Source: a virus (taxonomy: Duplodnaviria; Heunggongvirae; Uroviricota; Caudoviricetes). From it: a stretch of DNA of 15,279 nt. The position numbers were made by a program, and so were the translations under genes. Of this stretch, positions 1 to 15,279 are shown piece after piece. Within the stretch, counting starts at the first letter, position 1, and every line of letters starts with the position of its first letter. A model generated the notes under the pieces. The model was given only the letters and a program-made list of their open reading frames with translations. It was not told the DNA's origin and did no database searches. Location of the stretch: IMG/VR virus record IMGVR_UViG_2531839149_000015. One strand, 5' to 3'.

Positions 1-90
1 TTGCCTCCCCCCCGTTGATGGGTAAAATAGCCGCAATTTTTCGTTTTCAACAAGCGCGGCGCGATGCCGCTTACTCAAGAAGAAAGAATT

Positions 91-165
91 ATGACGTTGT
101 CTCCTTATTTGCAAGAGGTGGCGAAGCGCCGCACTTTTGCCATTATTTCTCACCCCAATAATTAA
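91..165 (+). pseudogene. prfC: 5' fragment of prfC (peptide chain release factor 3) truncated at the prophage/host junction
   Basis: ATG at 91 translates [22 protein letters not shown], which I recall as the N-terminus of E. coli RF3, then diverges (NN, stop at 163-165) instead of continuing DAGKTT. Homology appears to end near 156/157. Confidence 0.55.
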
Positions 166-319
166 GCCCAAATTAAAGCTCTTTTACTCTTTCAAAATCC
201 TTTCAGTTAATTGAGCTTGAGCTATATAACTCATTTAAATACATTTGGTTATGTGGCTTCTTTAATTGAAAATTCTTTCATGTAACTTTAAATCGATCAG
301 TTTGCTTTCATCAAAAATC

Positions 320-376
320 TGTACATATGCTTGTACATAATGTACAAAACAGCAGAGGTGTTTTGCGATTTGTACA
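320..376. promoter_or_regulatory. Cluster of four TGTACA hexamers immediately upstream of int; candidate regulator-binding sites in the int promoter
   Basis: TGTACA at 320-325, 332-337, 341-346 and 371-376; TTGTACATAATGTACAA is near-palindromic. int RBS (AGGTGA) and ATG 386 follow directly. Confidence 0.3.
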
Positions 377-385
377 AGGTGAGTA

Positions 386-1609: not shown

Positions 1610-1865
1610 CAGCTTGCGTAGCCCTGACAGTCTGTTTTGAGCGAACAGTGGACATTTTCAATGGCATTCTTGAGTAGGTTACGCTTAGACCAGAAGTAAG
1701 AGGTGATAGAATTATCAACAATACATAAAACATAGGGGATCCTTATTGATTTATTGATCTTGACCAACTTATGTGATGCAGTATGTCTTTAACTTGTATT
1801 ACTATTATCTTTATCTTTATCTTGTTGTTTCTAATAAACTTATCTTATTTCAGAAAGGAGTTTTT

Positions 1866-3566: not shown

Positions 3567-3572
3567 AGAGAA

Positions 3573-3591
3573 GGGAAGCTTATTGCTTCCC
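3573..3591. terminator. Perfect 7-bp stem/5-nt loop hairpin just after the AIPR-like stop; U-run is on the minus-strand side
   Basis: GGGAAGC-TTATT-GCTTCCC. On the plus strand it is followed by AATAAATTA (weak); on the minus strand by TTCTCTTTATTT, so it may mainly stop leftward transcription. Confidence 0.35.
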
Positions 3592-3730
3592 AATAAATTA
3601 ACACACTTATAGAACCCTTGACTTAAACTTTTTACTGGTTCTCTCAGATATCGATAATTTTATAGGTTGTATCATAGCGTGATCGTCTTCAAGAGAAACA
3701 ACTTAACATTAAATTAGCAACGTTTGCTCT

Positions 3731-3770
3731 TGGCACAGACTTGACTGTCAGATTAGTTTGGTCTGTGCCA
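3731..3770. repeat. 10-bp perfect inverted repeat with 20-nt spacer, between the AIPR-like gene and the AlpA-like gene
   Basis: TGGCACAGAC (3731-3740) and GTCTGTGCCA (3761-3770). No adjacent U-tract, so a protein-binding or recombination site is as likely as a terminator. Confidence 0.4.
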
Positions 3771-3804
3771 TAGATATGTCAGCTCCCATCTGAGATAATA
3801 CACG

Positions 3805-3999
3805 TTACTCAATAACTCCAGCAAATCTGTATATCTTGCGTGATGCCCATTTATTTGGGCAGGATTTAATATCAGGATCTGGAAAGTCAGGCCTGTATTT
3901 CTGGCCAGTTCTCCTGTTTACGCTGTTCCAGCGAAGAACAGTCGATACTGAAACGCCACAGAAGTCGGCGACTTGTTTAGTTGTCATTAAGTTGTTCAT
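3805..3999 (-). CDS. AlpA/excisionase-family small HTH DNA-binding protein (candidate recombination directionality factor / int regulator)
   Basis: 64 aa; MTTKQVADFCGVSVSTVLRW is a helix-turn-helix typical of AlpA/Xis-type proteins. Start overlaps the stop of the upstream gene (TAATG), i.e. translationally coupled. Confidence 0.7.
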   Translation of the reverse strand: MNNLMTTKQVADFCGVSVSTVLRWNSVNRRTGQKYRPDFPDPDIKSCPNKWASRKIYRFAGVIE

Positions 4000-4619
4000 T
4001 ACTTCACCTCCTGCGGCGGCTCCGGTAGCGGCATCCAGTGGGTTACTTTCGATGCCGGTTCTTCCCTATCGTCAGTAACTGCCCACCATTTGTTTCTCGA
4101 CCAATCGTAATCCCCTTCGAAGGTATCGCACTCAGTCCAGCCGTAAGGCTTCCCCCAACACCAAACATACTGTTTATCGTTCGGCATTCGCTCACTACAG
4201 CTTATCCAACCATCCGGAGTTACTGGAGAGTTGCCCGACAGCTTGTTCAACTTGTAAGTCTGGCTTACAGGTTCGGCACCATGAAGCATGGCGGCGCGGC
4301 AGGCGTTCCAGCCTTCATCAAAACCGACTATGCCATTATTTAAAGACGGACGAGCATCTGGCACCACCGGCACTGGCTTGGCTATATATAGCGGCTGAAC
4401 ATACCAGCCCTTTGATAACCAACTGTCAGCAATGTTTTTACTCCTCGTTATTGCCGGAATACCTAAGCCATTTTCTGAATGCAGCCATGCCACCGGCTCC
4501 TCTTCTAGCGATGCCAGAGCAATTTCATAAGCACGGCGCTCAATATCGTCTCGAACCTCTAGGCTGCTGATTCGTTCTTTGATTTCTTTAATCAGTTCTT
4601 TATCGGTAAATGTGGTCAT
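3999..4619 (-). CDS. DUF551-type phage protein (yfdT-like position)
   Basis: 206 aa; C-terminal WISCSERMP...VTHWMPLPEPP matches the DUF551 signature as I recall it. Start overlaps the upstream stop. Confidence 0.65.
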   Translation of the reverse strand: MTTFTDKELIKEIKERISSLEVRDDIERRAYEIALASLEEEPVAWLHSENGLGIPAITRSKNIADSWLSKGWYVQPLYIAKPVPVVPDARPSLNNGIVGFDEGWNACRAAMLHGAEPVSQTYKLNKLSGNSPVTPDGWISCSERMPNDKQYVWCWGKPYGWTECDTFEGDYDWSRNKWWAVTDDREEPASKVTHWMPLPEPPQEVK

Positions 4620-4981
4620 TATGCTCCAGCCTCCGGTGCTTTTGGCATTACTGCCCAGTGAGTGATATTGACGTTTTCAAGGTCCCCGACCTGAAATGTC
4701 CACTGCCATTCTCCGGTTTCTTTTTGCCCCCATGTATCCCAGAGAGAACGCCAGCCAATCAGCCAGCCTTCTCCATTAGCATCAAATAACAAAACACTTT
4801 CATTTGCTGGTGGCAGTTCAGTTGACACTGGTATTACTTTGTTTTCCTGTGCTGCACATTTAGCTTCAAGCGCATCGAATTTACGCACTAGGTATTCAGC
4901 ATCCGTTTCATTCACTTTCAGATCTCGCGGTACACATCTCCCACGAAGAAACCCTTCCATTTCGAAAACATTCATGCGCAT
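4619..4981 (-). CDS. DUF551-like phage protein (yfdS-like; 120 aa)
   Basis: C-terminal ...NITHWAVMPKAPE resembles the DUF551 motif; overlaps both neighbours in a coupled operon. Confidence 0.6.
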   Translation of the reverse strand: MRMNVFEMEGFLRGRCVPRDLKVNETDAEYLVRKFDALEAKCAAQENKVIPVSTELPPANESVLLFDANGEGWLIGWRSLWDTWGQKETGEWQWTFQVGDLENVNITHWAVMPKAPEAGA

Positions 4982-5508
4982 TTGCGTAACTCCGATAATT
5001 CGTTAAAGCGTTCCATAAACATCCCGTAGGCATGGCCTGGAGCCAGTGGAATCACGTTGAACATCTCTGTTGCCGGGATACCTTCCAGCACAGGCCAGAA
5101 AGAGCCATCATCAAGCCCGAGATCGCGGCGTTCGGTTGCCAGCATAATGAGATCGGCATATTTCACTGGCGTGCTCATAACAGGAGGTAACCCGTATTTC
5201 TCACGGATTACGGCGTCTATTTTTTCTTCCATCCGTTTATAGTCAGGAAGAAGTCGTTTCAGTGGTGCGGGGATGTCCTGGCAATATGCTTCTGTTGCAT
5301 CATGCATTAAAGCTTCAAAAGCAAATTCCTGCGGCACCAGCTGGCTGCAAAGCACCGCATGTTGGGCGACGCTGTAGAAGTGAGAAAGATGACCGGCAAA
5401 GCGGCAGATATTTGAAAGGGAAACCGCGATATCGTTAATAACGATGTCGTCTTTATTTATCTTGTCATAATAAAAATGCTTCCCGGAAAAAGTTTTAATA
5501 AATGACAT
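4972..5508 (-). CDS. yfdR: HD-domain phosphohydrolase (YfdR-like putative 5'-deoxynucleotidase)
   Basis: Start moved to the ATG at 5508 (RBS GGAG 7 nt upstream; MSFIKTF...), giving 178 aa. H...HD metal-binding motif (AQHAV...ALMHDATEAY). Length and position match CPS-53 YfdR as I recall it. Confidence 0.65.
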   Translation of the reverse strand: MSFIKTFSGKHFYYDKINKDDIVINDIAVSLSNICRFAGHLSHFYSVAQHAVLCSQLVPQEFAFEALMHDATEAYCQDIPAPLKRLLPDYKRMEEKIDAVIREKYGLPPVMSTPVKYADLIMLATERRDLGLDDGSFWPVLEGIPATEMFNVIPLAPGHAYGMFMERFNELSELRKCA

Positions 5509-5602
5509 TTTGTTCTCCACTTTATATGCGCTGCACCGCGCTGAATTTTGGTTAAAGAAAACCCTCGCCATCAGGCGATTATTGAGTTAATTACGTTTCC
5601 AT

Positions 5603-5624
5603 AAATGCCCCCGCAGGGGCATTT
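5603..5624. other. Intergenic 9-bp stem hairpin between the yfdQ-like and yfdR-like genes
   Basis: AAATGCCCC-CGCA-GGGGCATTT. No clear U-tract on either strand; possible attenuator or RNA-processing/stability element. Confidence 0.3.
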
Positions 5625-5636
5625 GCAGTAATGAAA

Positions 5637-6461
5637 TCAGGCGGTGAAAGTACCAATAAAGGTTTCTACTTTGCTGTCTTTGAATTTTTCAACAAGCAGA
5701 TCACGAAATTCGTTAGCCATTTCTTCCTGCACTGCTTCCAGCTGAATAATGCGCAGAACCAGTACAGGGCGATCACCAGTGATAATGCTGAGGCGTAATT
5801 TAAACGGACGTTCTTTCAGGCCTTCAAACGGAACGCATTTAAACTCAAATGCTACTGGCATAATGTCTTTGGTTTTCGCTTCGACAGACTCCATCAGAGA
5901 GCGTTTGCCGCTGAAGTCATTGTCTTCAAAATCAGCGGTCTGGTTTGCTTCAATCGTGATTTTACGGACCGCCGCAGCCGCTTTTGTTGCCTGAATGGCG
6001 TCACCATTAGCATCAAAGCCCACAAGGTAGTCGGCCCAGTCTTCAATCCATTCTGCCAGTGACTTCTGGGAGTTACGCTCGCCGTTAACAGACAACAGAG
6101 CAGAGAACGGTGCTGTCTTTTTCAGTTTGAGAGTGGCGGTGTTATCTGCGTGACCTGGTTCATCAATAGTACCCAGGTTAAGCACACTGACGGCACGCAT
6201 ATTATCGGCATCGATAAAGCAGCGGGTGCCTTCATCTGCAAGAACTTTAGAATAACGGGTAAAGTCATCGATGCTGGCAGTGGAAAGCGCACCACGGAAA
6301 CGGAAGCGATTTAAATTAAATTTTTCCAGATCATGAATGCGGAAATTCTCAGGCAATGCCACAGCATCGGCACCAATCTTACTGATAATTTCATTAACAC
6401 CCTGAGCAGAAATAAGGGCATGGATTTGATTAATTGCGGTTGCGTCTAAGTTCTGAGACAT
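5637..6461 (-). CDS. yfdQ: DUF2303-family phage protein (YfdQ-like)
   Basis: 274 aa, same length and operon position as CPS-53 YfdQ as I recall it; uninterrupted ORF with normal composition. Confidence 0.6.
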
Positions 6462-6526
6462 AATAAGTCCTCACTATATAAAGATATTCAGTGATGAGAT
6501 AAATAATCGGTTAATTAAGAACGATA

Positions 6527-6889
6527 TTAATGACCTGCTGCGCGGAGTTTTCCGTCAGGTTCACCGGCAAGAGTCAGTAATTGTCCCTGGTCTTCCTGCA
6601 GAATAGTCAGGCGACCACCGCGATTGACATACATCGGCGTTTCGGTGGTGTCTTCTTCGGAAATTTTCCCGCGGTTAGTCGGGCGAACATATGAGAGTTT
6701 GTGTTTGATTTTCACACGGTTCTCATCAAATGGTTCGATTTCCAGGTTGAGTGAGACCTTACCTTTGGTTTTCGTGTTCATCACACCGGAAGCGACTTCA
6801 CTGAGAACTGCGCCGATTTTGGTTTCAAATACGCCGCCGTCCAGCTCCCCAATAAATGCCTGCACATCAGTACTGCGTTCGCTAGCCAT
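6527..6889 (-). CDS. Conserved phage early protein of unknown function (yfdP-like position, 120 aa)
   Basis: Start set at ATG 6889 (MASERSTDVQ...) with RBS AGGAG 7 nt upstream. The 226-aa ORF-track extension to 7207 is C/R/W-rich, non-protein-like text. Confidence 0.55.
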   Translation of the reverse strand: MASERSTDVQAFIGELDGGVFETKIGAVLSEVASGVMNTKTKGKVSLNLEIEPFDENRVKIKHKLSYVRPTNRGKISEEDTTETPMYVNRGGRLTILQEDQGQLLTLAGEPDGKLRAAGH

Positions 6890-6937
6890 TTTTCTGCTCC
6901 TAATCATATCGACCCTGCAAGGTCGGTTGGTTTCTCC

Positions 6938-7026
6938 ACAAAACAGAGAAGAACACCTGCGGTGGCAGCCGCCCGGATGGATTGGGTTATGAGCCCGTCG
7001 TCCGGTGATGTTCTTCTCTGTTTTGT
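6938..7026. repeat. 18-bp perfect inverted repeat (stem) enclosing a 53-nt GC-rich loop; core of a structured non-coding region
   Basis: ACAAAACAGAGAAGAACA (6938-6955) pairs perfectly with TGTTCTTCTCTGTTTTGT (7009-7026). No flanking U-tract. Further local hairpins lie 7080-7150. Confidence 0.55.
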
Positions 7027-7358
7027 AAAAAGAGCGGTACCAGCCGGAAGCAAGTGTACAAACTTGTACCGCGAGGACTACACACAGCATAAAGTTGTGG
7101 TGCCGGGTGCCTCCCGGTGCCTGGCGAAGGTTGCACACCAGGCGGGTGGGTATCCACAGAAGGTCGACTGTCAGCCTCAACCTTAACCCGCGTGCGCTGA
7201 GCCGCATTCACCACAACGCTAAGGATTCTCTCTGGTTGAAAATACTTAGCTGTTATGTGCCTGCTTTTAGCCACATCAGGCGAGGTGGACCTAGTTATTC
7301 CCCAACAACAAGGATTTGGTTAATCTGGATATCCCCAACAACTAGCTGAGTATTCAAC

Positions 7359-7880
7359 GTGATAGCTGAACTGTCTGCGGCTATGGCCGCTATAAAGGAG
7401 ACTGCCGGTCTTGCTAAGGTTATTAATGACGCGAAAACGGATGCAGAAGTTAAAGCTGCAACCATTGAACTCCAGAACAAACTAATCACGCTTCAGGCAG
7501 AATGCTTCTCTCTTGGCGATGCGATCCGCCTTCGTGATGAAGAGGTGATGCATCTCAAAGCAAAAATTGCAGAGTTTGAAGATTTTTGTGCCAAGGTAGA
7601 AGGATATGTCCTTGATCAGCTTGACTCTGGTGCTTTTGTTTACTCTAAAAATGAAATTGTGAGTGGAAAAGAAATAACTGTGCATCTGTGCCCACTTTGT
7701 TATTCCAAAAATATAAAATCGATACTTCATCCGCTTCCAGTAGGTAAAACTTCTCATTTTCTTACAAGCCGTTGCCTTCACTGTGAAAATAAATTTCTTA
7801 TGGAAAAAAATCCGATGTACGAACGACCAAGATCATTACGTGAGTTGGGGCGAGATCTGAATTCGCCTTGGATTCCTTAA
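7359..7880 (+). CDS. Hypothetical coiled-coil / C4 zinc-ribbon protein; moron oriented opposite to the early-left operon
   Basis: 173 aa from GTG 7359 (alternative ATG 7383). N-terminal heptad-like region (IELQNKLITLQAE...LKAKIAEFEDF), C-terminal CPLC...CLHC. AT-rich 3' half; own terminator at 7923-7945. Confidence 0.6.
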   Translation: MIAELSAAMAAIKETAGLAKVINDAKTDAEVKAATIELQNKLITLQAECFSLGDAIRLRDEEVMHLKAKIAEFEDFCAKVEGYVLDQLDSGAFVYSKNEIVSGKEITVHLCPLCYSKNIKSILHPLPVGKTSHFLTSRCLHCENKFLMEKNPMYERPRSLRELGRDLNSPWIP

Positions 7881-7922
7881 ATCTTGCATTGGTTGGATGA
7901 TACCCAGATTGTTAAAGAGCTA

Positions 7923-7945
7923 AGCGTCCTGTAGGGCGCTTTTTT
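7923..7945 (+). terminator. Rho-independent terminator of the moron gene
   Basis: AGCGTCC-TGTA-GGGCGCT (7-bp stem, one G-U pair) followed by TTTTT, about 45 bp after the stop at 7880. Confidence 0.6.
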
Positions 7946-8028
7946 GTTGCTAACGAATCATCCTGGACTTCATATGCCCCAGGCGGCTACTTCGTGGGCG
8001 TCCTGCCTGTTCGTTATCTTTGATATAA

Positions 8029-8057
8029 AATCTAACTTAACTTAGTTATCATGGCAA
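8029..8057 (-). promoter_or_regulatory. Candidate leftward (pL-like) promoter with overlapping operator
   Basis: On the minus strand: TTGCCA (-35; plus 8052-8057), 17-bp spacer, TAGATT (-10; plus 8029-8034). The 14-mer CTAAC-TTAA-CTTAG (8032-8045) overlaps the spacer/-10 and matches the operator architecture seen between cI and cro. Confidence 0.35.
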
Positions 8058-8110
8058 GAGAAAACACCAAACTTTTCTTAGTTCGGTGCCTTAGTTAGAG
8101 AAGAGAGGCC

Positions 8111-8737
8111 TTAGAGTTCGTATTGAACTCCTTTGACTACACCAATGATAAGGCAATTACCATTGATAGGGATGTTGGGATACCGAGGATTTAATGGTAC
8201 TAAAAACTTTTGAGGGCCATCGATGACTAATTTTTTTACTGTAGCTTCGTTTGTTCCATCAAGTCGAGCGATGACTATTTTTCCATGACGAGGTTCTGCA
8301 TCTGGATCTACAATCACTGTTGCGCCTTCTGGTATTGTTGGGAGGCCATTAGGGTTAGTCATGGAGTCACCTTTAACCTCTAATGCAAATGAGTTATCAC
8401 CAACCTTTAATGATGTATCTACCCACTTGTCCACTTCACTAAACACTTCTGCTGCCCTGCACTCAGTAAACTGCCCAGCCTGAACCCACGATATTACAGG
8501 AACTCTGCGCATGTTTGTGACGAGTTTGCCTTCAAACTCAGCACCATAAAGAATGTAATCTATTGACGTATTGAAGAACTTCGCTAATTTCGAAAGTGCC
8601 TCCCCACCAGGGGTATTGATGTCTTTCTCCCAGTACCCCACAGCAACGTCGCTTACTCCACAAAATTTACCCAATTCTTTCTGGGACGTTCTGGTAACTC
8701 TTCTCAGAGCTTTTATACGCTGACCAACCGTTTCCAT
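8111..8737 (-). CDS. cI: CI-like repressor (XRE-type HTH plus S24 LexA-like autopeptidase domain)
   Basis: 208 aa; N-terminal HTH (QKELGKFCGVSDVAVGYWE), C-terminal S24 signature with GDSM serine and KKL lysine; divergent from a cro-like gene. Confidence 0.85.
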   Translation of the reverse strand: METVGQRIKALRRVTRTSQKELGKFCGVSDVAVGYWEKDINTPGGEALSKLAKFFNTSIDYILYGAEFEGKLVTNMRRVPVISWVQAGQFTECRAAEVFSEVDKWVDTSLKVGDNSFALEVKGDSMTNPNGLPTIPEGATVIVDPDAEPRHGKIVIARLDGTNEATVKKLVIDGPQKFLVPLNPRYPNIPINGNCLIIGVVKGVQYEL

Positions 8738-8759
8738 AGGAGCACCATTTCTTTAATTG

Positions 8760-8822
8760 CTAAGTAATCTTAGTTTTTATTGACCAAAGATAGATTTGTA
8801 ATTAGCATCTAATAAAACTTAG
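8760..8822. promoter_or_regulatory. Divergent immunity promoter/operator region (two palindromic 14-mers flanking a sigma70-like promoter)
   Basis: O1 CTAAG-TAAT-CTTAG (8760-8773); -35 TTGACC (8780-8785); 17-bp spacer; -10 TAGCAT (8803-8808); O2 CTAAT-AAAA-CTTAG (8809-8822); RBS GGAGG (8826-8830); cro ATG 8835. Confidence 0.5.
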
Positions 8823-8834
8823 TTTGGAGGGCGT

Positions 8835-9035
8835 ATGACAACTGACGATATCGAAAGCTACTTCGGCAGTATTGAGAAAGTTGCTGCTTTTTTCGGCATA
8901 ACAACTGAAGCCGTTTATCAGTGGCGAAACCGTCCGGGCCAGTTAATTCCAAAAGGACGTGCAGCAGAAGCTGCATATAGAACTTGCGGACGGTTGCCAT
9001 TTAAACCTGAGCTTTATGAAAAATCTAATGGATAA
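8835..9035 (+). CDS. Cro-like small HTH regulator (YdaS/Cro-type)
   Basis: 66 aa; HTH (EKVAAFFGITTEAVYQWRNR); first gene of the rightward operon opposite cI. Confidence 0.7.
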   Translation: MTTDDIESYFGSIEKVAAFFGITTEAVYQWRNRPGQLIPKGRAAEAAYRTCGRLPFKPELYEKSNG

Positions 9036-9630
9036 ATCGATTAACAGAAACCACAGAACGATGAGGCTAACCGTGGGTAAGCATCACTGGAAAGTAGAAA
9101 AACAGCCTGAGTGGTACGTGAAAGCTGTCAGAAAAACTATCGCAGCGTTGCCGGGGGGTTACGCTGAAGCAGCTGACTGGCTGGATGTAACAGAGAACGC
9201 ATTATTTAACCGCCTTCGTGCCGATGGCGATCAGATTTTCCCGCTGGGATGGGCAATGATTTTGCAACGTGCTGGTGGAACTCACTTCATTGCTGACGCT
9301 GTGGCGCAGTCTGCAAATGGCGTCTTTGTGTCTCTTCCTGACGTCGAGGATGTGGACAACGCCGATATTAACCAGCGTCTGCTGGAAGTCATTGAACAGA
9401 TCGGCAGTTATTCAAAACAGATTCGTTCAGCAATCGAAGACGGTGTAGTGGAACCGCATGAGAAGACAGCAATTAACGACGAGCTGTATCTCTCAATTTC
9501 GAAGCTGCAGGAGCATGCAGCACTTGTCTACAAAATTTTTTGCATTTCAGAAAGTAATGACGCCCGCGAGTGTGCAGCTCCGGGCGTCGTGGCGTCGATT
9601 GCTTCTGGTTGTGGAGAAACTAACGCATGA
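9016..9630 (+). CDS. CII-like / YdaT-type phage regulatory protein
   Basis: Start uncertain (ATG 9016 or 9028, overlapping the cro end; ORF track begins 8959). Position after cro and general features suggest a CII/CP76-type regulator; assignment is by synteny and memory. Confidence 0.5.
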
Positions 9631-9965
9631 ACAGTTTAACAACACACTACCGTCGCTCGCAACTGATTGCGCTTCCTGTACCGGGTGGAAAAGCGAAGGT
9701 GGAGTATTGCTATGCAGTAAATGTACCAGGTGACAGGGAAATTGTAACCCACAGCTTTGCAGAGTGGGCTGTGGGTGATTTCAACCGGCAGAAGGAGACA
9801 GTCCTTTGCGACAAGTTAACCGCTGGTTCAAAGATCACTACGGAGTGCCCGTCAGAGTCATTCGTTGGGAACCGGAAACACAACGGGTTATCTACCTCCG
9901 CGAAGGCTATGAGCATGAGTGCTTCAGCCCGCTCGAACAGTTTCGTCGTAAATTCAGGGAAATAG
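9627..9965 (+). CDS. Hypothetical ORF coupled to the upstream gene; 3' portion probably not real
   Basis: ATG overlaps the upstream stop (ATGA). The C-terminal half is Ser-rich and low-complexity, and it overlaps a better-looking ORF in another frame (9806-9985). Confidence 0.3.
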
Positions 9966-9985
9966 AGGTCGGTCATGAGCACTAA
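9806..9985 (+). CDS. Small conserved phage protein (59 aa, TTG start); resembles DUF4222-type proteins found upstream of replication genes
   Basis: RBS AAGGAGA (9792-9798) 7 nt before TTG 9806; translation [59 protein letters not shown] has natural-protein composition; stop overlaps the start of the replication gene (coupling). Not in the ORF track because of the TTG start and length. Confidence 0.45.
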
Positions 9986-10916
9986 ATTAACCGGCTATGT
10001 ATGGGATGGTTGCGCTGCATCAGGCATGAAGTTATCCAGCGTGGCAATTATGGCCCGCCTGGCTGATTTCAGTAATGACGAAGGTGTGTGCTGGCCATCA
10101 ATTGAAACCATTGCCCGTCAGATTGGCGCGGGGATGAGTACCGTCAGAACGGCTATCGCACGGCTGGAAGCAGAAGGCTGGTTAACGCGTAAGGCGCGTC
10201 GCCAGGGTAACCGCAATGCGTCGAATGTTTATCAGCTTAACGTTGCGAAGCTTCAGGCAGCGGCATTTTCTCAACTGTCAGATTCTGACCCGTCAAAATC
10301 TGACGCATCAAAATCTGACCCGTCAAAATTTGATGCGTCGAAATCTGGCAAAAAAGCGGGTTTTCACCCGTCAGAATCTGGCGGGGATCCGTCAGTAAAA
10401 TCAAAACATGATCCGTCAGATAAAAAACCTTCTCGTCCGGACGCTTCGCAACCGGACACGCAGACGGATGAACAGGATTTTTTAACTCGCCATCCTGATG
10501 CGGTTGTATTCAGCCCTAAAAAGCGCCAGTGGGGGACGCAGGATGATTTGACCTGCGCACAGTGGCTCTGGAAAAAAATCATCGCCCTGTACGAGCAGGC
10601 TGCCGAATGTGACAGCGAGGTGGTTCGTCCCAAAGAACCGAACTGGACAGCCTGGGCAAACGAAATTCGCCTGATGTGTGTGCAGGATGGTCGTACTCAC
10701 AAACAAATCTGCGAGATGTACAGCCGCGTCAGCCGCGATCCGTTCTGGTGCCGTAACGTGCTCAGCCCGTCGAAGCTGCGGGAAAAATGGGATGAGCTTT
10801 CCCTGCGCTTATCGCCGTCCGTCAGCACGTACACAGAAAAACGCGAAGACCCGTACTTCAAAGCCAGTTACGACAATGTGGACTACAGCCAGATCCCGGC
10901 AGGATTCAGGGGGTGA
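9975..10916 (+). CDS. Phage replication initiation protein (N-terminal winged-helix DNA-binding domain, pentapeptide-repeat linker, C-terminal domain)
   Basis: 313 aa; N-terminal HTH (SIETIARQIGAGMSTVRTAIARLEAEGWL); central PSKSD/ASKSD repeats encoded by 15-bp DNA iterons; occupies the gene-O position after the cII-like gene. Confidence 0.75.
   Translation: MSTKLTGYVWDGCAASGMKLSSVAIMARLADFSNDEGVCWPSIETIARQIGAGMSTVRTAIARLEAEGWLTRKARRQGNRNASNVYQLNVAKLQAAAFSQLSDSDPSKSDASKSDPSKFDASKSGKKAGFHPSESGGDPSVKSKHDPSDKKPSRPDASQPDTQTDEQDFLTRHPDAVVFSPKKRQWGTQDDLTCAQWLWKKIIALYEQAAECDSEVVRPKEPNWTAWANEIRLMCVQDGRTHKQICEMYSRVSRDPFWCRNVLSPSKLREKWDELSLRLSPSVSTYTEKREDPYFKASYDNVDYSQIPAGFRG
10275..10349. repeat. Five contiguous 15-bp iterons inside the replication gene (candidate origin), with degenerate copies to about 10427
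   Basis: CTGTCAGATTCTGAC / CCGTCAAAATCTGAC / GCATCAAAATCTGAC / CCGTCAAAATTTGAT / GCGTCGAAATCTGGC; further CCGTCAGAATCTGGC (10368), CCGTCAGTAAAATC (10389), CCGTCAGATAAAAAA (10413) with A-rich stretches. Confidence 0.6.
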
Positions 10917-10918
10917 GC

Positions 10919-11407
10919 ATGAGTCTTTTGAATGACGTTCAGAAATTCATTGAAGCCCATCCGGGCTGTACTTCCGGAGACATTGCGGATGCTTTTGCAG
11001 GTTACTCACGGCAGCGCGTTCTGCAGTCAGCAAGCAAGTTACGTCAGAGTGGGCGTGTGGCTCACCGTTGTGAAGGAGATACACACAGACATTTCCCGCG
11101 CCTGACTGAGAGAGCGCAGGATCCGGAACCACAACCAGTTCGTGAAACCAGACCTGTGCGCAATTTCTATGTCGGCACTAACGACCCGCGGGTGATTTTG
11201 TGCCTGACCCGCCAGGCGGAAGAACTGGAGTCCAGGGGCTTATACCGTCGTGCTGCAACGGTGTGGATGGCGGCATTCCGTGAAAGCCACTCCCTGCCAG
11301 AACGAAACAATTTTTTGGCGCGTCGTGAACGGTGTTTACGGAAAAGCAGTAAGCGGGCTGCATCAGGTGAAGAGTGGTATCTCTCAGGGAATTACGTGGG
11401 GGCTTAA
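10919..11407 (+). CDS. Hypothetical protein with C-terminal PerC-like motif
   Basis: ATG 10919 (RBS AGGGGG; overlaps upstream stop). C-terminal LTRQAEELESRGLYRRAATVWM closely parallels RKAEELESKGLYRRAAARWM of the PerC-family ORF at 13738. No Walker motifs, so not a P/DnaC-type helicase loader. Confidence 0.6.
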   Translation: MSLLNDVQKFIEAHPGCTSGDIADAFAGYSRQRVLQSASKLRQSGRVAHRCEGDTHRHFPRLTERAQDPEPQPVRETRPVRNFYVGTNDPRVILCLTRQAEELESRGLYRRAATVWMAAFRESHSLPERNNFLARRERCLRKSSKRAASGEEWYLSGNYVGA

Positions 11408-12060
11408 TGAGTAATAAATATTGCCAGGCGCTGGTGGAACTGCGGAACAAACCAGCCCATGAACTGAAGGAAGTGGGCGATCAGTGGCGCACGCCGGACA
11501 ACATTTTCTGGGGAATTAACACCCTGTTTGGCCCGTTTGTTCTGGATCTGTTCACTGACGGTGATAACGCCAAATGTGCTGCGTATTACACGGCGGAAGA
11601 CAACGCGCTGGCGCATGACTGGTCAGAACGCCTTGCGGAGCTTAAAGGTGCTGCCTTTGGTAATCCCCCATACAGCCGCGCCAGTCAGCATGAGGGGCAA
11701 TACATCACCGGCATGCGTTACATCATGAAGCATGCCAGTGCCATGCGTGATAAAGGCGGGCGCTATGTTTTCCTGATCAAAGCTGCCACCAGCGAAGTGT
11801 GGTGGCCGGAAGATGTAGAACATATTGCTTTTATTCGCGGGCGTATTGGTTTTGAACTGCCTGCCTGGTTTATCCCGAAGGATGAGAAGCAGGTGCCGAC
11901 AGGCGCTTTCTTCGCTGGTGCTATTGCTGTTTTCGACAAGACCTGGAAGGGACCGGCAATCAGCTACATCGGGCGCGATGAACTTGAGGCATGTGGTGAG
12001 GCCTTTCTGGCGCAGATTCGCCAGCAGGCAGAAAAACTGGTCAGGGAGATGGCGGCATGA
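11407..12060 (+). CDS. Phage-type DNA N6-adenine methyltransferase
   Basis: Start at ATG 11407 overlapping the upstream stop; catalytic NPPY motif (AAFGNPPYSR); size about 217 aa typical of phage Dam-family enzymes. Confidence 0.8.
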   Translation: MSNKYCQALVELRNKPAHELKEVGDQWRTPDNIFWGINTLFGPFVLDLFTDGDNAKCAAYYTAEDNALAHDWSERLAELKGAAFGNPPYSRASQHEGQYITGMRYIMKHASAMRDKGGRYVFLIKAATSEVWWPEDVEHIAFIRGRIGFELPAWFIPKDEKQVPTGAFFAGAIAVFDKTWKGPAISYIGRDELEACGEAFLAQIRQQAEKLVREMAA

Positions 12061-12383
12061 CGACGTTAACTCAATGCCAGCAGCAGGTGCTGGATATGCT
12101 GATTTCTTATCAGAAAGAACGCGGCTTCCCGCCAACCAATCAGGAGGTGGCAACCATGCTGGGATACCGTTCGGTGAATGCAGCGGTGGAGCATCTTCGC
12201 GCACTGGAGAAAAAAGGCGTCATCACGATAAAGCGTGGTGTGGCCCGGGGGATCACGCTTCATACCGCGGTGAAGGACGACGACAGCGAGGCGGTCGGGA
12301 TTATCCGCTCACTGCTTGCCGGTGAGGAAAACGCAAGGCTGCGTGCAGCCCACTGGTTACATGAGAGGGGGCTGAAAGTATGA
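12057..12383 (+). CDS. LexA N-terminal DNA-binding-domain-like protein (no peptidase domain)
   Basis: 108 aa; MTTLTQCQQQVLDMLISYQKERGFPPTNQEVATMLGYRSVNAAVEHLRALEKKGVI parallels the LexA winged-helix domain; ends without an S24 domain. ATGA overlap with the Dam stop. Confidence 0.6.
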   Translation: MTTLTQCQQQVLDMLISYQKERGFPPTNQEVATMLGYRSVNAAVEHLRALEKKGVITIKRGVARGITLHTAVKDDDSEAVGIIRSLLAGEENARLRAAHWLHERGLKV

Positions 12384-12592
12384 AGCTGATTCTGCCTTTT
12401 CCACCCAGCGTGAACACCTACTGGCGACACCCCAACAAAGGGGCATTTGCTGGTAAGAGCCTGATAAGCGCGGCGGGGCGAAAATTCCAAAGTGCGGCGT
12501 GCACAGCAATAGTTGAGCAGTTACGTCGTCTGCCGAAACCAACGTCGGCACCTGCTTCAGTGGAGATCGTGTTGTTTCCTCCGGATATCTGA
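12380..12592 (+). pseudogene. rusA: Truncated rusA (Holliday-junction resolvase) N-terminal fragment
   Basis: LPFPPSVNTYWRH matches the RusA N-terminal motif; the ORF stops after ...VEIVLFPPDI (70 aa), where full-length RusA would continue with its catalytic acidic residues. No continuation in other frames; downstream sequence is unrelated. Confidence 0.65.
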
Positions 12593-12665
12593 CGTGATAA
12601 ATCGCGTTACATGACATCTCATGTTGTGCTGGTGGTTATCACGACGTTCTGAATCTGGCCTTTGC

Positions 12666-12698
12666 CTGATATTTTGCGACAAGTACGCGCGCGTAGCA
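12666..12698. repeat. Copy A of a ~35-bp imperfect direct repeat containing palindrome TACGCGCGCGTA
   Basis: CTGATATTTTGCGACAAGTACGCGCGCGTAGCA; about 75 bp downstream of the rusA fragment. Confidence 0.55.
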
Positions 12699-12721
12699 TC
12701 GACAGCATACACATTGGATAT

Positions 12722-12943
12722 TCATTTTGTGACCAATGCGATAAGTAGCGGGATAAGAATTGATAAAATCAACAGGCCGATGATCCACTTTTGATTTTCA
12801 CTGGCCTTATCTCTATTTTCATCAATCTTATCAATAATTCGACGCTCCAAGCCGTGCATATCACCGCGAATGGCAATCATCTCATTGCGAACATCCGAGA
12901 AGTGGTTGGCTTGATGTTCAATGTGTGGCGTTCTGCCTTTCAT
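12722..12943 (-). CDS. Small tail-anchored membrane protein (73 aa), unknown function
   Basis: Hydrophilic charged N-terminal region and a single C-terminal hydrophobic helix (WIIGLLILSILIPLLIALV); downstream of and co-oriented with the RHH-like gene. Confidence 0.5.
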   Translation of the reverse strand: MKGRTPHIEHQANHFSDVRNEMIAIRGDMHGLERRIIDKIDENRDKASENQKWIIGLLILSILIPLLIALVTK

Positions 12944-13022
12944 TCCTGATCCTCACCTATCGTCACCACCTGCTGGTGTATAAAGGTATTGGCCCAAGCA
13001 GCTTTCCAATGGGCACTCATGT

Positions 13023-13478
13023 TTATACGCTGACCTTACAATCAATCACCGCTTTTAACTTTTCAGCATTGCTTCCCTGACGCTTCCACGCGCTGTAAAT
13101 ATCTTTATCCCACGCTTTACCAGCTTTTGTTTGATAGCCTGCTTCATTGATCCGTTCAGCTATCACACGCCCATTATCAAATCCCTGTCGGATGGTATCG
13201 GCAATGATCTTTATAACTGCCGTTTCGTTATATGGCTTTGGTGGGATGTTCGGCTTTCCGGCAATAAGCGACGCAGCAGCTTTTTCCATGCGCTCCACCA
13301 GCCCAAGCATTCGTGAATCAATAGACTTTTCCGGCTGTCCCAGCTTCATGCGAATCGCATCAACAAGCCAGGAGGTTTTATCCCCTCCAGAAGCGAGAAC
13401 AGACCGATTAAACTCATCCTGCAATTCAGATGGGATGCGGAACGCGACCAGATTAGATTTGCTCATTGCAAAGACCAT
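13023..13478 (-). CDS. Putative DNA-binding regulator (ribbon-helix-helix-like N-terminus)
   Basis: N-terminal SNLVAFRIPSELQDEFNRSVLASGGDKTSWLVDAIRMKL resembles Arc/CopG-type RHH; C-terminal AGYQTKAGKAWDKDIYSAWKR resembles a recombinase-type DNA-binding helix. Start ambiguous (ATG 13478 or 13466); no clear SD. Confidence 0.55.
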   Translation of the reverse strand: MVFAMSKSNLVAFRIPSELQDEFNRSVLASGGDKTSWLVDAIRMKLGQPEKSIDSRMLGLVERMEKAAASLIAGKPNIPPKPYNETAVIKIIADTIRQGFDNGRVIAERINEAGYQTKAGKAWDKDIYSAWKRQGSNAEKLKAVIDCKVSV

Positions 13479-13580
13479 ATCAGTGAGTAATATCCATACA
13501 GTATATCACTGTATAACACTGTTATACGCTCAAATATCAGCCAGAAAATAACGGGCCAATCACAAAGCTATCGCTGTGTT

Positions 13581-13701
13581 GTTGGTTCAGAGCTGGGCTG
13601 TGTTGGTTCAAAATGAGTTGATGTTGGTTCAATATTTTAGAAAAAACATAATAAAAACAACGATCTTTACAAATTGAACCAACTGAACCAACTGAACCAA
13701 C
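13581..13701. repeat. Iteron-like array: three GTTGGTTCA direct repeats phased at 21 bp, then three tandem inverted copies TGAACCAAC
   Basis: GTTGGTTCA at 13581, 13602, 13623; TGAACCAAC at 13675, 13684, 13693; AT-rich spacer between; lies between divergent genes (13478 minus, 13738 plus). Confidence 0.6.
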
Positions 13702-13737
13702 ACCTTTTTGCTTATCTATATAATCTGAGAGGCAGAA

Positions 13738-14019
13738 ATGATAAGGGACAGGAAAGCTGAAGAGCTGGAGTCAAAAGGGCTATACCGGAGAGCTGCCGCA
13801 CGATGGATGGAAGTCATGCTGTTATGCAGCGAGGACGATGATCGGGAATGGATAAAGCGCCGCCGTGAAACGTGTCTGGAGAACGTGAAGCGCCCGCCCG
13901 TGAAGGTTGAGGAATTTGGCGACCTGCATAAAGCTGTTACCGAAACGCAACACCGCATGGGGATAGCGCAACCGAACGGTAACGCCTTCCGGTTAAATGG
14001 CGGCAAGAGGCAAAGGTAG
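13738..14019 (+). CDS. PerC-family transcriptional activator (Pch-like)
   Basis: 93 aa; MIRDRKAEELESKGLYRRAAARWMEV... matches the PerC/Pch signature as I recall it; RBS GAGAGG upstream. Confidence 0.6.
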   Translation: MIRDRKAEELESKGLYRRAAARWMEVMLLCSEDDDREWIKRRRETCLENVKRPPVKVEEFGDLHKAVTETQHRMGIAQPNGNAFRLNGGKRQR

Positions 14020-14055
14020 ACCACCAGAGGGAAATCATCCTCTGGCTGGCGGTTT

Positions 14056-14090
14056 CTGGTATTTCGGGACAAGTACGCGCGCGCGTAGCA
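14056..14090. repeat. Copy B of the ~35-bp imperfect direct repeat
   Basis: CTGGTATTTCGGGACAAGTACGCGCGCGCGTAGCA; three mismatches and a 2-bp CG expansion relative to copy A; about 40 bp after the PerC-family stop. Confidence 0.55.
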
Positions 14091-14316
14091 CCCAATCGGT
14101 GAGGAAATAGCGGCGACCTGAATGGTCAAAATCACAACGCAGCTATCCCCGTAAGCAGCGCTTAACGGAATAGCAGTAACCTGAATCCAGTGGGGAGGGG
14201 GTAGTCAAATCTCTACAGCCCTGACTATCCGGGACTGCCCGCCCCATCGTTTTTTTATACCCGCGAAAAATGAAATTTAATCCGGGCGTGTTTCATCCTT
14301 CCAGAGGGTATGACGT

Positions 14317-14502
14317 ATGACACCACGCGAAATAGCTTTATTGACCACCGCCAAACTGGAGCACGAAGGCCACCAGCTAACCCCGGCAGATCAACGGGAG
14401 ATAGAACGCTCAGTTAATGCCAATATAGCCCGGCGTGACAAATTTCGCGAAATGATGCGATCCCCCGCCTACCAGTGGAAGAAGCCTGCGCCGCGCAGGT
14501 AG
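14317..14502 (+). CDS. Small hypothetical basic protein (61 aa)
   Basis: ATG 14317 preceded by AGAGGG; hydrophilic with a basic C-terminus; no recognisable motif. Could be a partner of the downstream Panacea gene or a spurious ORF. Confidence 0.35.
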   Translation: MTPREIALLTTAKLEHEGHQLTPADQREIERSVNANIARRDKFREMMRSPAYQWKKPAPRR

Positions 14503-14823
14503 ATTACCTTTATTCACCTTTATATATTCGAACAACAAAACCTCTCGCAGGTCTCGCCAATAAAGGGATATAGCAGTAACTATGACCGCCGAATGGCAAA
14601 GCTACGATGCAAGTCGCTGGTTTCCAAACTTGAGGTTTCCAGGACGGTTTCAACCAAATTGCGGATTATCAGCCAAACGCACCGGGTATCTTGCGCGGTG
14701 GATGGTGAGCCATCACGCAGAATCTTTAAATGGCATTTTACGATGGGCAATACCCGTGGTTATATGCGATTATTAACGGTAGTGGACAGTTATAGACGAA
14801 AACATACGGCAGGAGATTGGATA

Positions 14824-15279
14824 ATGGCAGTTACAACCCTTAACAGCGTAGCGGATTACCTGCTTTGCTTTGCTCAAGAGCATGGGGATGTTATGACGCC
14901 GCTGAAACTGCAAAAAATGGTGTTCTATGCTGATGCTTGGTTCATGGCGCTGAATGATGGCGAAGAACTGGTTGCTGACAAGTTTGAAGCATGGGTACAT
15001 GGCCCTGTAGCCAGAGATTTGTATACCAGATTTGCAGATTACAAATGGCGCTCAATAGACGAAGAGATTGCCTGCCCTGAGTTACCTGCGAATGTGTCAA
15101 AGCATCTAAAGGAAATCTATGAGGTATTTGGCGGTTATACAGCTTATGAGCTGGAGCAGATGACGCACCAAGAAAAGCCGTGGCTGGAGGCCCGTGAAGG
15201 GGTTCCATCAGATGCGCCGTGCAAGAATGTTATTGATAAAAGTGTAACGGCTGAGTTTTATCGTTCGATGGCTTCCTAA
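14824..15279 (+). CDS. Panacea-domain (DUF4065) protein, PanA/SocA/GepA-like putative antitoxin
   Basis: Start set at ATG 14824 (RBS AGGAGA 7 nt upstream) rather than the ORF-track start 14593. 151 aa with TPLKLQKMVFYADAWFMALNDGEEL, matching the Panacea signature as I recall it. Stop is at the last base of the window. Confidence 0.7.
   Translation: MAVTTLNSVADYLLCFAQEHGDVMTPLKLQKMVFYADAWFMALNDGEELVADKFEAWVHGPVARDLYTRFADYKWRSIDEEIACPELPANVSKHLKEIYEVFGGYTAYELEQMTHQEKPWLEAREGVPSDAPCKNVIDKSVTAEFYRSMAS

What the first reader, a model, noticed from the sequence alone, without database searches (positions are those of the whole stretch)
12380..14090. Truncated rusA followed by a foreign module bounded by ~35-bp direct repeats
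rusA stops at codon 70, before its catalytic residues, and lambdoid synteny (Q, lysis genes) is lost. The next 1.4 kb is bracketed by two imperfect copies of CTG(A/G)TATTT..GACAAGTACGCGCGCG(CG)TAGCA (12666-12698 and 14056-14090), each containing the palindrome TACGCGCGCGTA. These may be recombination linkers that mediated module exchange, or binding sites for a dimeric regulator placed after two operons.
Basis: seen in the sequence. Interest (0 to 1): 0.55.

Follow-up and report, generated by a model that had tools for sequence, protein, structure and literature searches.

The report
Satellite repeats copied from helper terminase gene
The two 35-bp repeats are real, but they belong to a phage satellite (an EcCIMP1-type island) fused to a broken prophage, and they look like copies of a short piece of the helper phage's small-terminase gene, so they may be the signals the satellite uses to get packaged.

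Summary
rusA is cut after codon 69, and two imperfect direct repeats (12666-12698, 14056-14090) share an exact 16-mer.

The interpretation needs revision. rusA ends at a plain deletion scar (12586/12587, 2-bp microhomology), 80 bp left of repeat 1. Everything to the right is the right arm of an EcCIMP1-type phage-inducible chromosomal island (PICI), not a 1.4-kb insert.

The repeats belong to a family of 3-5 same-orientation copies in these islands. Mosaic junctions sit at their edges. Natural deletions join copy 0 to copy 1 (NCTC9022) and copy 1 to copy 2 (AHB1), so "recombination end points" is supported.

The core, TTTCGnGACAAGTACGCG, matches 17/18 a site in the small-terminase gene (terS) of Kapi1, the known EcCIMP1 helper. 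That is the best match in the whole phage genome. Copy 0 also carries a box resembling the P22 pac site. The island holds a P22-type terS relic elsewhere, and a second satellite lineage keeps the same 22-mer out of coding context.

Best explanation, inferred rather than shown: these are pac-site mimics that let a terS-less satellite be packaged by P22-like helpers. A cos site of the SfV/phiP27 type lies about 100 bp downstream of copy 2.

The parts
12380..12587 (+). 5' fragment of rusA (codons 1-69), a pseudogene. The ORF runs on to a foreign stop at 12592.
   Evidence: PHROG 34 at E=2e-22. PGAP annotates the same DNA as 'RusA family... missing C-terminus'. Alignment to the intact 129-aa allele.
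12586..12587 (.). Deletion junction between the lambdoid prophage and the PICI right arm, with a 2-bp (TA) microhomology.
   Evidence: Three-way alignment of the window, an intact rusA locus (L243) and an intact PICI (L002). Many genomes match only from window 12586 onward.
12588..12702 (+). Distal end of the conserved 465-bp non-coding PICI block that carries copy 0, copy 0' and copy 1 in intact islands. It contains a Chi octamer at 12627-12634.
   Evidence: L002 11653-12117 is the intact block. About 90% of its columns are invariant over 14 unique variants.
12666..12698 (+). Repeat copy 1 (core GACAAGTACGCGCGCG at 12678-12693; terS-like box ATTTTGCGACAAGTACGCG).
   Evidence: 19/20 with one gap to Kapi1 terS nt 169-189.
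12702..12703 (.). Mosaic junction. To its right lies a variable cargo slot: the 73-aa gene here, ImmA/IrrE plus a hypothetical gene in UPEC129, alpA_1 in MP1.
12722..12943 (-). 73-aa small membrane/holin-like cargo gene.
   Evidence: PHROG 6324 at E=3e-11, weak holin PHROG 689. Replaced in other islands.
13023..13478 (-). 151-aa Arc/ribbon-helix-helix-like protein, a conserved satellite gene.
   Evidence: 357 homologues across Enterobacterales, one named 'Arc-like DNA binding domain protein'. It lies at the end of the island in Salmonella, Klebsiella and Serratia.
13581..13701 (.). Iteron array: 3 direct GTTGGTTCA (21-bp spacing), an AT-rich spacer, then 3 inverted copies (9-bp spacing). Probable satellite origin or operator.
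   Evidence: 6 matches against 0.13 expected. 80-90% conserved in Salmonella and Klebsiella islands and duplicated next to the primase gene.
13738..14019 (+). PerC-family gene (orthologue of EcCIMP1_025).
   Evidence: Pfam PF06069 at E=1e-30. PMC11773190.
14056..14090 (+). Repeat copy 2 (core 14068-14083). The extended terS-like stretch runs 14037-14080.
   Evidence: 31/44 to Kapi1 terS nt 145-189, 0 of 500 shuffles as good.
14186..14290 (+). cos-like site of the SfV/SfII/SfIV/ST64B/phiP27 type.
   Evidence: 81-95% identity to the genome ends of these phages and to the annotated phiP27 'cos-site'. Also present in MP1 EcCIMP1.
14317..14502 (+). 61-aa ORF after cos. A second mosaic junction lies at about 14504.
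   Evidence: (H20 ends at 14504).
14824..15279 (+). Panacea/SocA-domain antitoxin gene, a cargo gene absent from MP1 EcCIMP1.
   Evidence: Pfam PF13274 at E=8e-18..

Best explanation
The two repeats are members of a multi-copy, same-orientation repeat family. The copies are copy 0, a degenerate copy 0', copy 1, copy 2, and a terminal copy in dinD-locus islands. The family lies in the right arm of EcCIMP1-type PICIs.

Shown: the family derives from the small-terminase (terS) genes of P22-like helper phages. The shared core, TTTCGnGACAAGTACGCG, copies codons F-R-D-K-Y-A at the end of the DNA-binding-domain part of Sf6-type terS, as carried by the proven helper Kapi1. The longer copies carry in addition a box resembling the P22 pac site.

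Inferred mechanism: the satellite has no terS of its own. The helper's TerS ring binds these pac-like boxes on replicated satellite DNA and recruits TerL. Headful packaging then starts nearby and runs rightward, towards the cos-like site and cargo.

Shown side effect: because the copies share 16-23 identical bases in direct orientation, they also serve as cross-over points. These delete or swap the segments between them, which explains the mosaic junctions.

The rusA truncation is a separate, illegitimate deletion that fused a lambdoid prophage remnant to this satellite arm.
For: Identity of the element
- 96-100% identity to the thrW island of many E. coli strains and to MP1 EcCIMP1.
- EcCIMP1 is a functional PICI moved by Kapi1. 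It has no terminase gene, its packaging mechanism is unknown, and Kapi1 is not a generalised transducer (PMC11773190).

The repeat family
- 3-5 copies per island, all on one strand, in E. coli genomes, IMG/VR and metagenomes.

terS origin
- The best local match of copies 0, 1 and 2 in the whole 39-kb Kapi1 genome, both strands, falls in terS at 18873-18892, with 17/18 to 19/20 identity. No shuffle did as well (0/300 and 0/500). My own estimate for an 18-mer with one mismatch is E about 6e-5.
- Copy 2 aligns over 44 nt (31/44).
- GACAAGTACGCGAAGGCAAC is invariant across three diverged Sf6-type terS alleles whose flanks differ at many synonymous sites. One allele's domain-swap junction lies exactly there.
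- Copy 0's upstream box GAAGATTTTTCTGATATCACTG is 16/22 identical to the annotated P22 pac (gene 3 nt 268-289) and 25/35 over nt 268-302 (0-1 of 500 shuffles). It is 18/18 identical to the same codons of another P22-type terS.
- The island also keeps a 107-nt P22-type terS relic that begins at the pac position.
- A second satellite lineage keeps the same 22-mer as a 16-17-codon out-of-frame remnant, in the same DUF4222-ash slot.

Precedent and background
- pac or cos mimicry is known for PLE, EfCIV583, P4 and SaPIbov5 (PMC11417361).
- P22-like pac sites lie inside terS (PMC9611059; PMC8022706).

Recombination role
-.
Against: - No packaging or binding data exist for these sites.
- I could not read Leavitt et al. 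2013, the paper that maps the Sf6 pac site. That it lies in the DNA-binding-domain part of gene 1 is my recollection, and the core sits at the very edge of that part.
- The core bases shared with the phage are invariant among terS alleles with different DNA-binding domains. This argues against their being the specificity determinant.
- The satellite's CGCGCG extension is absent from Kapi1, and no phage terS in IMG/VR or INPHARED has the full 22-mer.
- Within the 465-bp block the cores are no more conserved than their surroundings.
- Relatives in Salmonella, Klebsiella and Serratia lack the motif and any P22-pac-like site.
- EcCIMP1 transduction by Kapi1 is very inefficient.
- The box A match to P22 pac alone is not significant over all the DNA I scanned (about 0.7 expected).
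- P22-type and Sf6-type TerS show no profile similarity.
Confidence: 0.45

Rival explanations
1. Non-functional debris. The copies are decayed scraps of terS genes left by past recombination between the satellite and P22-like phages. They matter only as short homology patches ('linkers') at which RecA-, Red/RecT- or slippage-type recombination shuffles satellite modules.
For: - The island demonstrably carries terS debris: a 107-nt pseudogene that PGAP flags.
- Mosaic junctions and two natural deletions coincide with the copies.
- The cores are not more conserved than the surrounding non-coding block.
- The motif is absent from more distant relatives.
- One IMG/VR contig joins Kapi1-like structural genes to this block, which suggests phage-satellite exchange in this region.
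Against: - Random decay would not leave 3-5 copies of the same 20-45-nt piece, all in one orientation, with an identical 16-mer core and divergent flanks.
- It would not leave the same 22-mer as an isolated remnant in a second satellite lineage.
- It would not leave two different terS types both represented by the segment at or near pac.
Confidence: 0.3
2. Operator or regulatory sites. The repeats bind a satellite or helper regulator (Arc-like protein, PerC, AlpA, or a LexA-like protein) at the ends of transcription units.
For: - The copies are intergenic and lie just past gene ends.
- Copies 1 and 2 contain a 12-14-bp palindrome.
- A perfect palindrome TTGCAAAA(N2)TTTTGCAA lies next to copy 0.
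Against: - The palindrome is not conserved in copy 0, the terminal copy or the second lineage.
- The conserved part is asymmetric.
- A far better candidate operator or origin, the iterons at 13581-13701, lies between the divergent regulator genes and is conserved across genera, whereas the repeats are not.
- No promoter- or terminator-like signal and no RNA structure was found at the copies.
Confidence: 0.1
3. Site-specific recombination sites. The copies are att-like or cassette-type sites at which a recombinase inserts and excises cargo modules.
For: - Direct repeats bracket variable cargo.
- In the AHB1 and NCTC9022 hybrids the cross-over falls inside the core.
Against: - No dedicated recombinase lies nearby.
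- The island's integrase uses a different core, TCCTATTATC in thrW.
- Cargo slots have a repeat on one side only, with the other junction at a gene's 3' end.
- Only 1 of 552 genomes shows the copy1 x copy2 product.
- There is no inverted-repeat core architecture.
Confidence: 0.07

Closest known systems
pac/cos-site mimicry by phage satellites (PLE-ICP1 14-bp pac mimic; EfCIV583; P4 and SaPIbov5 cos sites)
   Same: - The satellite lacks its own small terminase.
- It carries a short stretch nearly identical to a helper packaging-region sequence. PLE has 14 identical bp within 89 bp at 71% identity; here it is 17/18 within 31/44.
- The stretch lies in non-coding DNA near the origin (PMC11417361).
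   Different: - Here the sequence is present in 3-5 dispersed direct copies.
- It is derived from inside the helper's terS coding region.
- It is combined with a P22-pac-like box and with a cos site of another phage group.
- Function is untested.
EcCIMP1, the thrW PICI of E. coli MP1 mobilised by phage Kapi1 (ISME J 2025, PMC11773190)
   Same: The window from 12587 on is 96% identical to parts of EcCIMP1: the block up to 12702, and 13601-14504 including PerC, copy 2, cos and the 61-aa ORF. MP1 itself carries copies 0, 1 and 2.
   Different: - Only the right arm is present here. The integrase-to-ejection-gene part was replaced by a lambdoid prophage remnant.
- The cargo differs: the 73-aa gene and Arc-like gene instead of alpA_1, plus an added Panacea module.
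- The passages of the paper returned by my term searches describe neither the repeats nor the cos site, and they say the packaging mechanism is unknown.
P22 pac site and Sf6-type terS (pac inside the small-terminase gene)
   Same: - Box A matches the P22 pac 22-mer at 16/22 and starts at the same codon in P22-type terS.
- The core matches Sf6-type terS codons 57-63.
   Different: - The copies are out of coding context, with stops and no conserved frame.
- They are not identical to either phage site.
- Which bases Sf6-type TerS recognises is not known to me.
'Linker'/boundary sequences of lambdoid phage mosaics (HK620/HK97-type comparisons; recalled from the literature, not checked here)
   Same: Short conserved sequences at the borders of non-homologous modules. 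Recombinants whose cross-overs fall in them are observed.
   Different: - Found only in satellites, not in any isolate phage genome searched.
- They have an identifiable origin in terS.
- They are repeated within one element.

Membership tests
Satellite pac-site mimic | The satellite lacks its own small terminase and depends on the helper terminase. | tested here: met
   No terminase gene is annotated in MP1 EcCIMP1 or in related islands, only a 107-nt pseudogene. The paper states the same.
Satellite pac-site mimic | The sequence matches the helper's packaging recognition site. | tested here: inconclusive
   17/18 (up to 31/44) to Kapi1 terS, the best hit in the genome. Box A is 16/22 to the annotated P22 pac. 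The exact Sf6/Kapi1 pac bases could not be looked up.
Satellite pac-site mimic | The site is required for transduction, and packaging starts at it. | not testable with these tools
   Needs deletion mutants and virion DNA end-mapping.
EcCIMP1-type PICI | Sequence identity to EcCIMP1 and the same gene order in the right arm (PerC, 61-aa ORF, pRiA4b ORF-3 ... attR). | tested here: met
   An attR-like TTCCTATTATCGCCA is seen in L002 beyond the window.
EcCIMP1-type PICI | A complete element: P4-type integrase at thrW, alpA, primase, excision on helper induction. | tested here: not met
   In the thrW-locus genomes that match window 4974-15279, DNA left of 12587 is lambdoid prophage, so the island is a remnant.
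RusA Holliday-junction resolvase | N-terminal RusA fold signature. | tested here: met
   PHROG 34 at E=2e-22. 69 of 69 residues identical to the intact allele.
RusA Holliday-junction resolvase | Catalytic acidic residues (RDLDN motif and the downstream Asp). | tested here: not met
   The ORF ends ...FPPDI*. The intact allele continues ...FPPDNRIRDLDNYN...DD.
Lambdoid module-boundary linker | The same short sequence lies at the junctions of non-homologous modules in several genomes. | tested here: met
   Junctions at 12702 and at the terminal copy, plus the hybrids in NCTC9022 and AHB1.
Lambdoid module-boundary linker | Present in lambdoid phage genomes. | tested here: not met
   The copy0-copy1 block has no match in 50,697 phage records at E<=1. 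Only one metagenomic phage-like contig, possibly chimeric, carries it.
Dimeric-regulator operator | A dyad symmetry conserved among copies. | tested here: not met
   TACGCGCGCGTA occurs only in copies 1 and 2. In other copies the core is followed by AGGGG, CAGGA or GGTAAG.
Structured RNA / intrinsic terminator | A stable or conserved secondary structure, or an Rfam match. | tested here: not met
   Fold z-scores range from +1.45 to -2.3, and the only strong hairpin lies outside the repeat. No Rfam hit. No terminator call at the repeats.

The most novel reading that the evidence does not exclude
EcCIMP1-type satellites carry a compound, multi-specificity packaging region. It would consist of tandem and dispersed mimics of the pac sites of two different TerS types (a P22-type box and an Sf6-type box, both lifted from inside helper terS genes) plus a cos site of the SfV/phiP27 group. 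One terS-less island could then be packaged by three unrelated helper terminases. The same boxes would double as the break-points at which cargo modules are exchanged. The DUF4222-ash slot would be a second, swappable 'pac cassette' position across this satellite family.
Probability: 0.15. Interest if true: 0.75.

Novelty: new variant of a known kind. Interest (0 to 1): 0.55.

Why it matters
EcCIMP1 is an experimentally proven satellite of a P22-like phage, and its packaging mechanism is explicitly unknown. The repeats flagged here give a concrete candidate that can be mutated: short terS-derived boxes that could recruit the helper's small terminase.

If this is right, it would be the first case I know of in which a satellite copied a pac site from inside the helper's terS gene and multiplied it. 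It would explain how a terminase-less island is moved specifically by a phage that does not do generalised transduction.

It would also link packaging signals to the modular exchange of cargo, here toxin-antitoxin and Abi-type genes. If the rival explanation holds, the finding is an ordinary deletion scar plus recombination-prone debris.

Tried and rejected
- RNA explanations were rejected. Folds of both strands of four copies are unremarkable, there is no Rfam family, and no promoter or terminator consensus lies at the repeats.
- The coding explanation was rejected. ORFs over the copies have no Pfam hit, their N-termini and reading frames are not conserved between variants, and copy 2 has no start codon.
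- att sites of the island integrase were ruled out. The thrW 3' end and TCCTATTATC are unrelated to the motif.
- ops/RfaH, Chi, integron attC, dif and oriT nic sites were considered from memory. None fits the conserved bases. A Chi octamer at 12627 is lost in some variants.
- I tried to argue that the core is the positional homologue of the P22 pac. Pairwise and profile comparisons of P22-type and Sf6-type TerS show no relation, so I dropped the argument.
- Salmonella, Klebsiella and Serratia relatives were searched for the motif, for a P22-pac-like site and for terS-like segments. Nothing was found.
- The search for related loci with a P22-type TerS alignment returned only P22-identical genes, so I got no allele diversity.
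- The closest isolate to the terS allele that matches box A is an Acinetobacter phage, so no E. coli helper with that box was identified.
- Leavitt 2013 and both Zhao papers on Sf6 TerS are not held.
- Soil-metagenome hits to the 22-mer have unrelated flanks and are probably chance.
Full report
**1.

The ORF at 12380-12592 is the first 69 codons of a RusA-family resolvase plus one foreign codon and a stop (PHROG 34, E=2e-22). A strain with DNA 100% identical up to position 12587 has an intact 129-aa RusA. It continues ...FPPDNRIRDLDNYN... and is followed by KilA-N, DUF968, Q and lysis genes. So the catalytic acidic motif and the lambdoid late region are missing here.

The two repeats are real. 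The repeat finder pairs 12666-12693 with 14056-14083 at 89%. Their shared 16-mer GACAAGTACGCGCGCG occurs exactly twice in the window, against 0.09 expected.

**2. What the DNA after rusA is**

Window 4974-15279 is 99.3% identical, and 12000-15279 is 99.9-100% identical, to a locus next to tRNA-Thr (thrW) in several E. coli chromosomes. PGAP annotates the same rusA pseudogene there.

Hundreds of other genomes match only from window 12586 onward. In these, the DNA to the left is a P4-type integrase, AlpA, antirepressor, Ash, a TOPRIM/DUF927 primase and P22-like ejection-protein genes.

This element is the PICI EcCIMP1 family. It sits at thrW with att core TCCTATTATC, it is mobilised by the P22-like phage Kapi1, it has no terminase genes, and its packaging mechanism is unknown (PMC11773190). 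The MP1 island itself matches window 12586-12702 and 13601-14504 at 96%.

A three-way alignment puts the prophage/PICI junction at 12586/12587 with only a TA microhomology, 80 bp left of repeat 1. The rusA truncation is therefore an illegitimate deletion scar and has nothing to do with the repeats. The "foreign module" is the whole satellite right arm, not 1.4 kb.

**3. The repeats are a family**

Intact islands carry more copies than the window does:
- Copy 0, about 290 bp upstream of copy 1.
- A degenerate copy 0' 53 bp further on.
- Copy 1 and copy 2.
- In dinD-yicG-locus islands, a terminal copy about 190 bp from the island end.

All copies lie on the same strand. Copies 0 and terminal are longer. 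They pair an upstream box (GAAGATTTTTCTGATATCACT) with the core, 20 nt apart. Copies 1 and 2 look like a shortened fusion of the two parts.

The conserved part, (A/T)TTTcGnGA(C)AAGTACGCGCGCG, is asymmetric. No RNA structure, Rfam family, promoter or terminator signal is associated with the copies. Reading frames over them are not conserved.

**4. They do mark recombination points**

- Sequence identity in more than 500 genomes stops at window 12702, 4 bp past repeat 1. Different cargo follows: the 73-aa gene here, ImmA/IrrE in UPEC129, alpA_1 in MP1.
- The copy1-to-copy2 distance varies among islands: 1390, 1743, 1754 and 2297 bp.
- The terminal copy has variable left flanks and a constant right flank.
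- NCTC9022 has a copy0/copy1 hybrid and lacks the 286 bp between them.
- One genome of 552, AHB1, has a copy1/copy2 hybrid and lacks exactly the 73-aa/Arc-like/iteron/PerC segment. The cross-over lies inside the core.

**5. Where the repeats come from**

An IMG/VR hit placed the core inside an Sf6-type small-terminase gene, in frame as D-K-Y-A-R-A. I then tested the proven helper.
- In the complete Kapi1 genome, the best local match of copies 0, 1 and 2 on either strand is in terS, at 18873-18892 (ATTTTCGCGACAAGTACGCG). Identity is 17/18 to 19/20, and no shuffle scored as well.
- Copy 2 extends the similarity to 31/44 over terS nt 145-189.
- Among three diverged Sf6-type terS alleles, GACAAGTACGCGAAGGCAAC is invariant while flanking codons differ. 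One allele's domain-exchange junction lies exactly at GACAAG.
- The upstream box of copy 0 is 16/22 identical to the annotated P22 pac site, which I verified at gene 3 nt 268-289. It is 25/35 identical over nt 268-302, and 18/18 identical to the same codons (90-95) of another P22-type terS. On its own the 16/22 match would not be significant over all the DNA I scanned. The exact positional coincidence is what makes it credible.
- The island holds a 107-nt P22-type terS pseudogene elsewhere, between DUF4222 and ash. It starts at the pac position and has 85-87% identity.
- A second satellite lineage has integrase, Bro-N, DUF4222-Ash and a primase. In that same slot it carries a single copy of the identical 22-mer, as a 16-17-codon TerS-like remnant bounded by stop codons.

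The terS origin of the family is, I think, established.

**6. Mechanism (inferred)**

In P22-like phages the pac site lies inside terS (PMC9611059; PMC8022706). From memory of Leavitt et al. 2013, which I could not retrieve, the Sf6 site lies in the part that encodes the DNA-binding domain.

Satellites that lack a terminase are known to copy helper packaging signals: PLE, EfCIV583, P4 and SaPIbov5 (PMC11417361). EcCIMP1 has no terS, yet Kapi1, which does not do generalised transduction, transfers it specifically.

The most economical reading is that the repeats are pac mimics bound by helper TerS. Their recombination behaviour would follow from their being identical direct repeats.

A cos site of the SfV/SfII/ST64B/phiP27 type lies at 14186-14290, about 100 bp right of copy 2. 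The iteron array at 13581-13701, probably the origin, lies between copies 1 and 2. The region therefore looks like a replication/packaging centre.

**7. Caveats**

- Nothing here shows binding or packaging.
- The bases shared with Kapi1 are those that do not vary among terS alleles. The satellite-specific CGCGCG tail has no phage counterpart.
- The cores are not more conserved than the rest of the 465-bp block.
- Distant relatives lack the motif.
- P22-type and Sf6-type TerS are not detectably homologous, so I dropped a "positional homologue of pac" argument for the core.
- One metagenomic contig joins Kapi1-like structural genes to the copy0-copy1 block. It is either an assembly chimera or a natural hybrid.

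The main rival is that these are inert terS scraps serving only as homology patches. It remains plausible at about 0.3.

**8. Verdict**

It is wrong about the cause of the rusA truncation, the extent of the foreign DNA and the regulator idea.

The element is a known kind (a PICI, with packaging-signal mimicry). The multi-copy, terS-derived pac-like repeats are, as far as I could find, undescribed, and they give a directly testable answer to how EcCIMP1 is packaged.

Noticed in passing
window 1-4973 versus 4974-15279: The window is a hybrid of two chromosomal loci. Positions 1-5200 (P4-type integrase at 386-1609, AIPR abortive-infection gene at 1773-3566, DUF551 genes) match a defective prophage next to yjjG. 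Positions 4974-15279 match the thrW locus, about 330 kb away in the same genomes. No complete E. coli genome of 5,426 holds more than 69% of the window colinearly. This is either a recombinant between two related prophages or an assembly join.
   Followed up: partly
window 14186-14290: A cos-like site 81-95% identical to the genome ends of SfV, SfII, SfIV, SfI and ST64B and to the annotated cos-site of phiP27. It is also present in MP1 EcCIMP1 and does not appear in the passages of the EcCIMP1 paper I retrieved. It suggests the island could also be packaged by cos-type helpers.
   Followed up: partly
window 13581-13701: Three direct (21-bp spacing) and three inverted (9-bp spacing) GTTGGTTCA iterons flank a 43-bp AT-rich spacer, between the divergent Arc-like and PerC genes. 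The block is 80-90% conserved in Salmonella and Klebsiella islands. It is duplicated next to the primase gene in Salmonella L149 (14411-14505) and in MP1. It is probably the satellite origin.
   Followed up: partly
L002 1993-2099 (- strand); L004 6378-6484; L242 16954-17060: A 107-nt pseudogene fragment of a P22-type small-terminase gene (gene 3 nt 268-374, starting at the pac position) lies in the DUF4222-ash intergenic slot of EcCIMP1-type islands.
   Followed up: yes
L139 and L205 (IMG/VR contig 3300045988_004969): A Kapi1-like phage contig (Sf6-type terS through coat and tail genes, about 96% to Kapi1) runs through PICI-allele ejection genes into the copy0-copy1 block. It is either a metagenome assembly chimera or a natural phage-satellite recombinant.
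   Followed up: partly
window 14824-15279 and beyond (L001 17825-18717): A Panacea/SocA-domain antitoxin gene plus a downstream 144-aa gene is inserted after the 61-aa ORF (junction at about 14504). The pair is absent from MP1 EcCIMP1. It is a likely toxin-antitoxin or defence cargo in a second variable slot.
   Followed up: no
window 10263-10385: Six 15-bp-spaced repeats (TCAAAATCTGACCCG-like) lie inside the HTH_36 replication-initiator-like gene (9975-10916). This is the usual arrangement of a lambdoid origin within the O gene.
   Followed up: no
window 12627-12634: A Chi octamer (GCTGGTGG) lies 32 bp upstream of repeat 1. It is lost (ACTGGTGG) in some island variants, so it is probably incidental.
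   Followed up: partly
L338, L343, L346-L348, L365, L367, L372 (soil metagenomes): The exact 22-mer TTTCGnGACAAGTACGCGCGCG also occurs in four unrelated non-coding contexts in GC-rich soil contigs, one of them 700 bp from a large serine recombinase gene. The flanks share nothing with the island. These are probably chance hits in a very large database, but I did not resolve this.
   Followed up: partly
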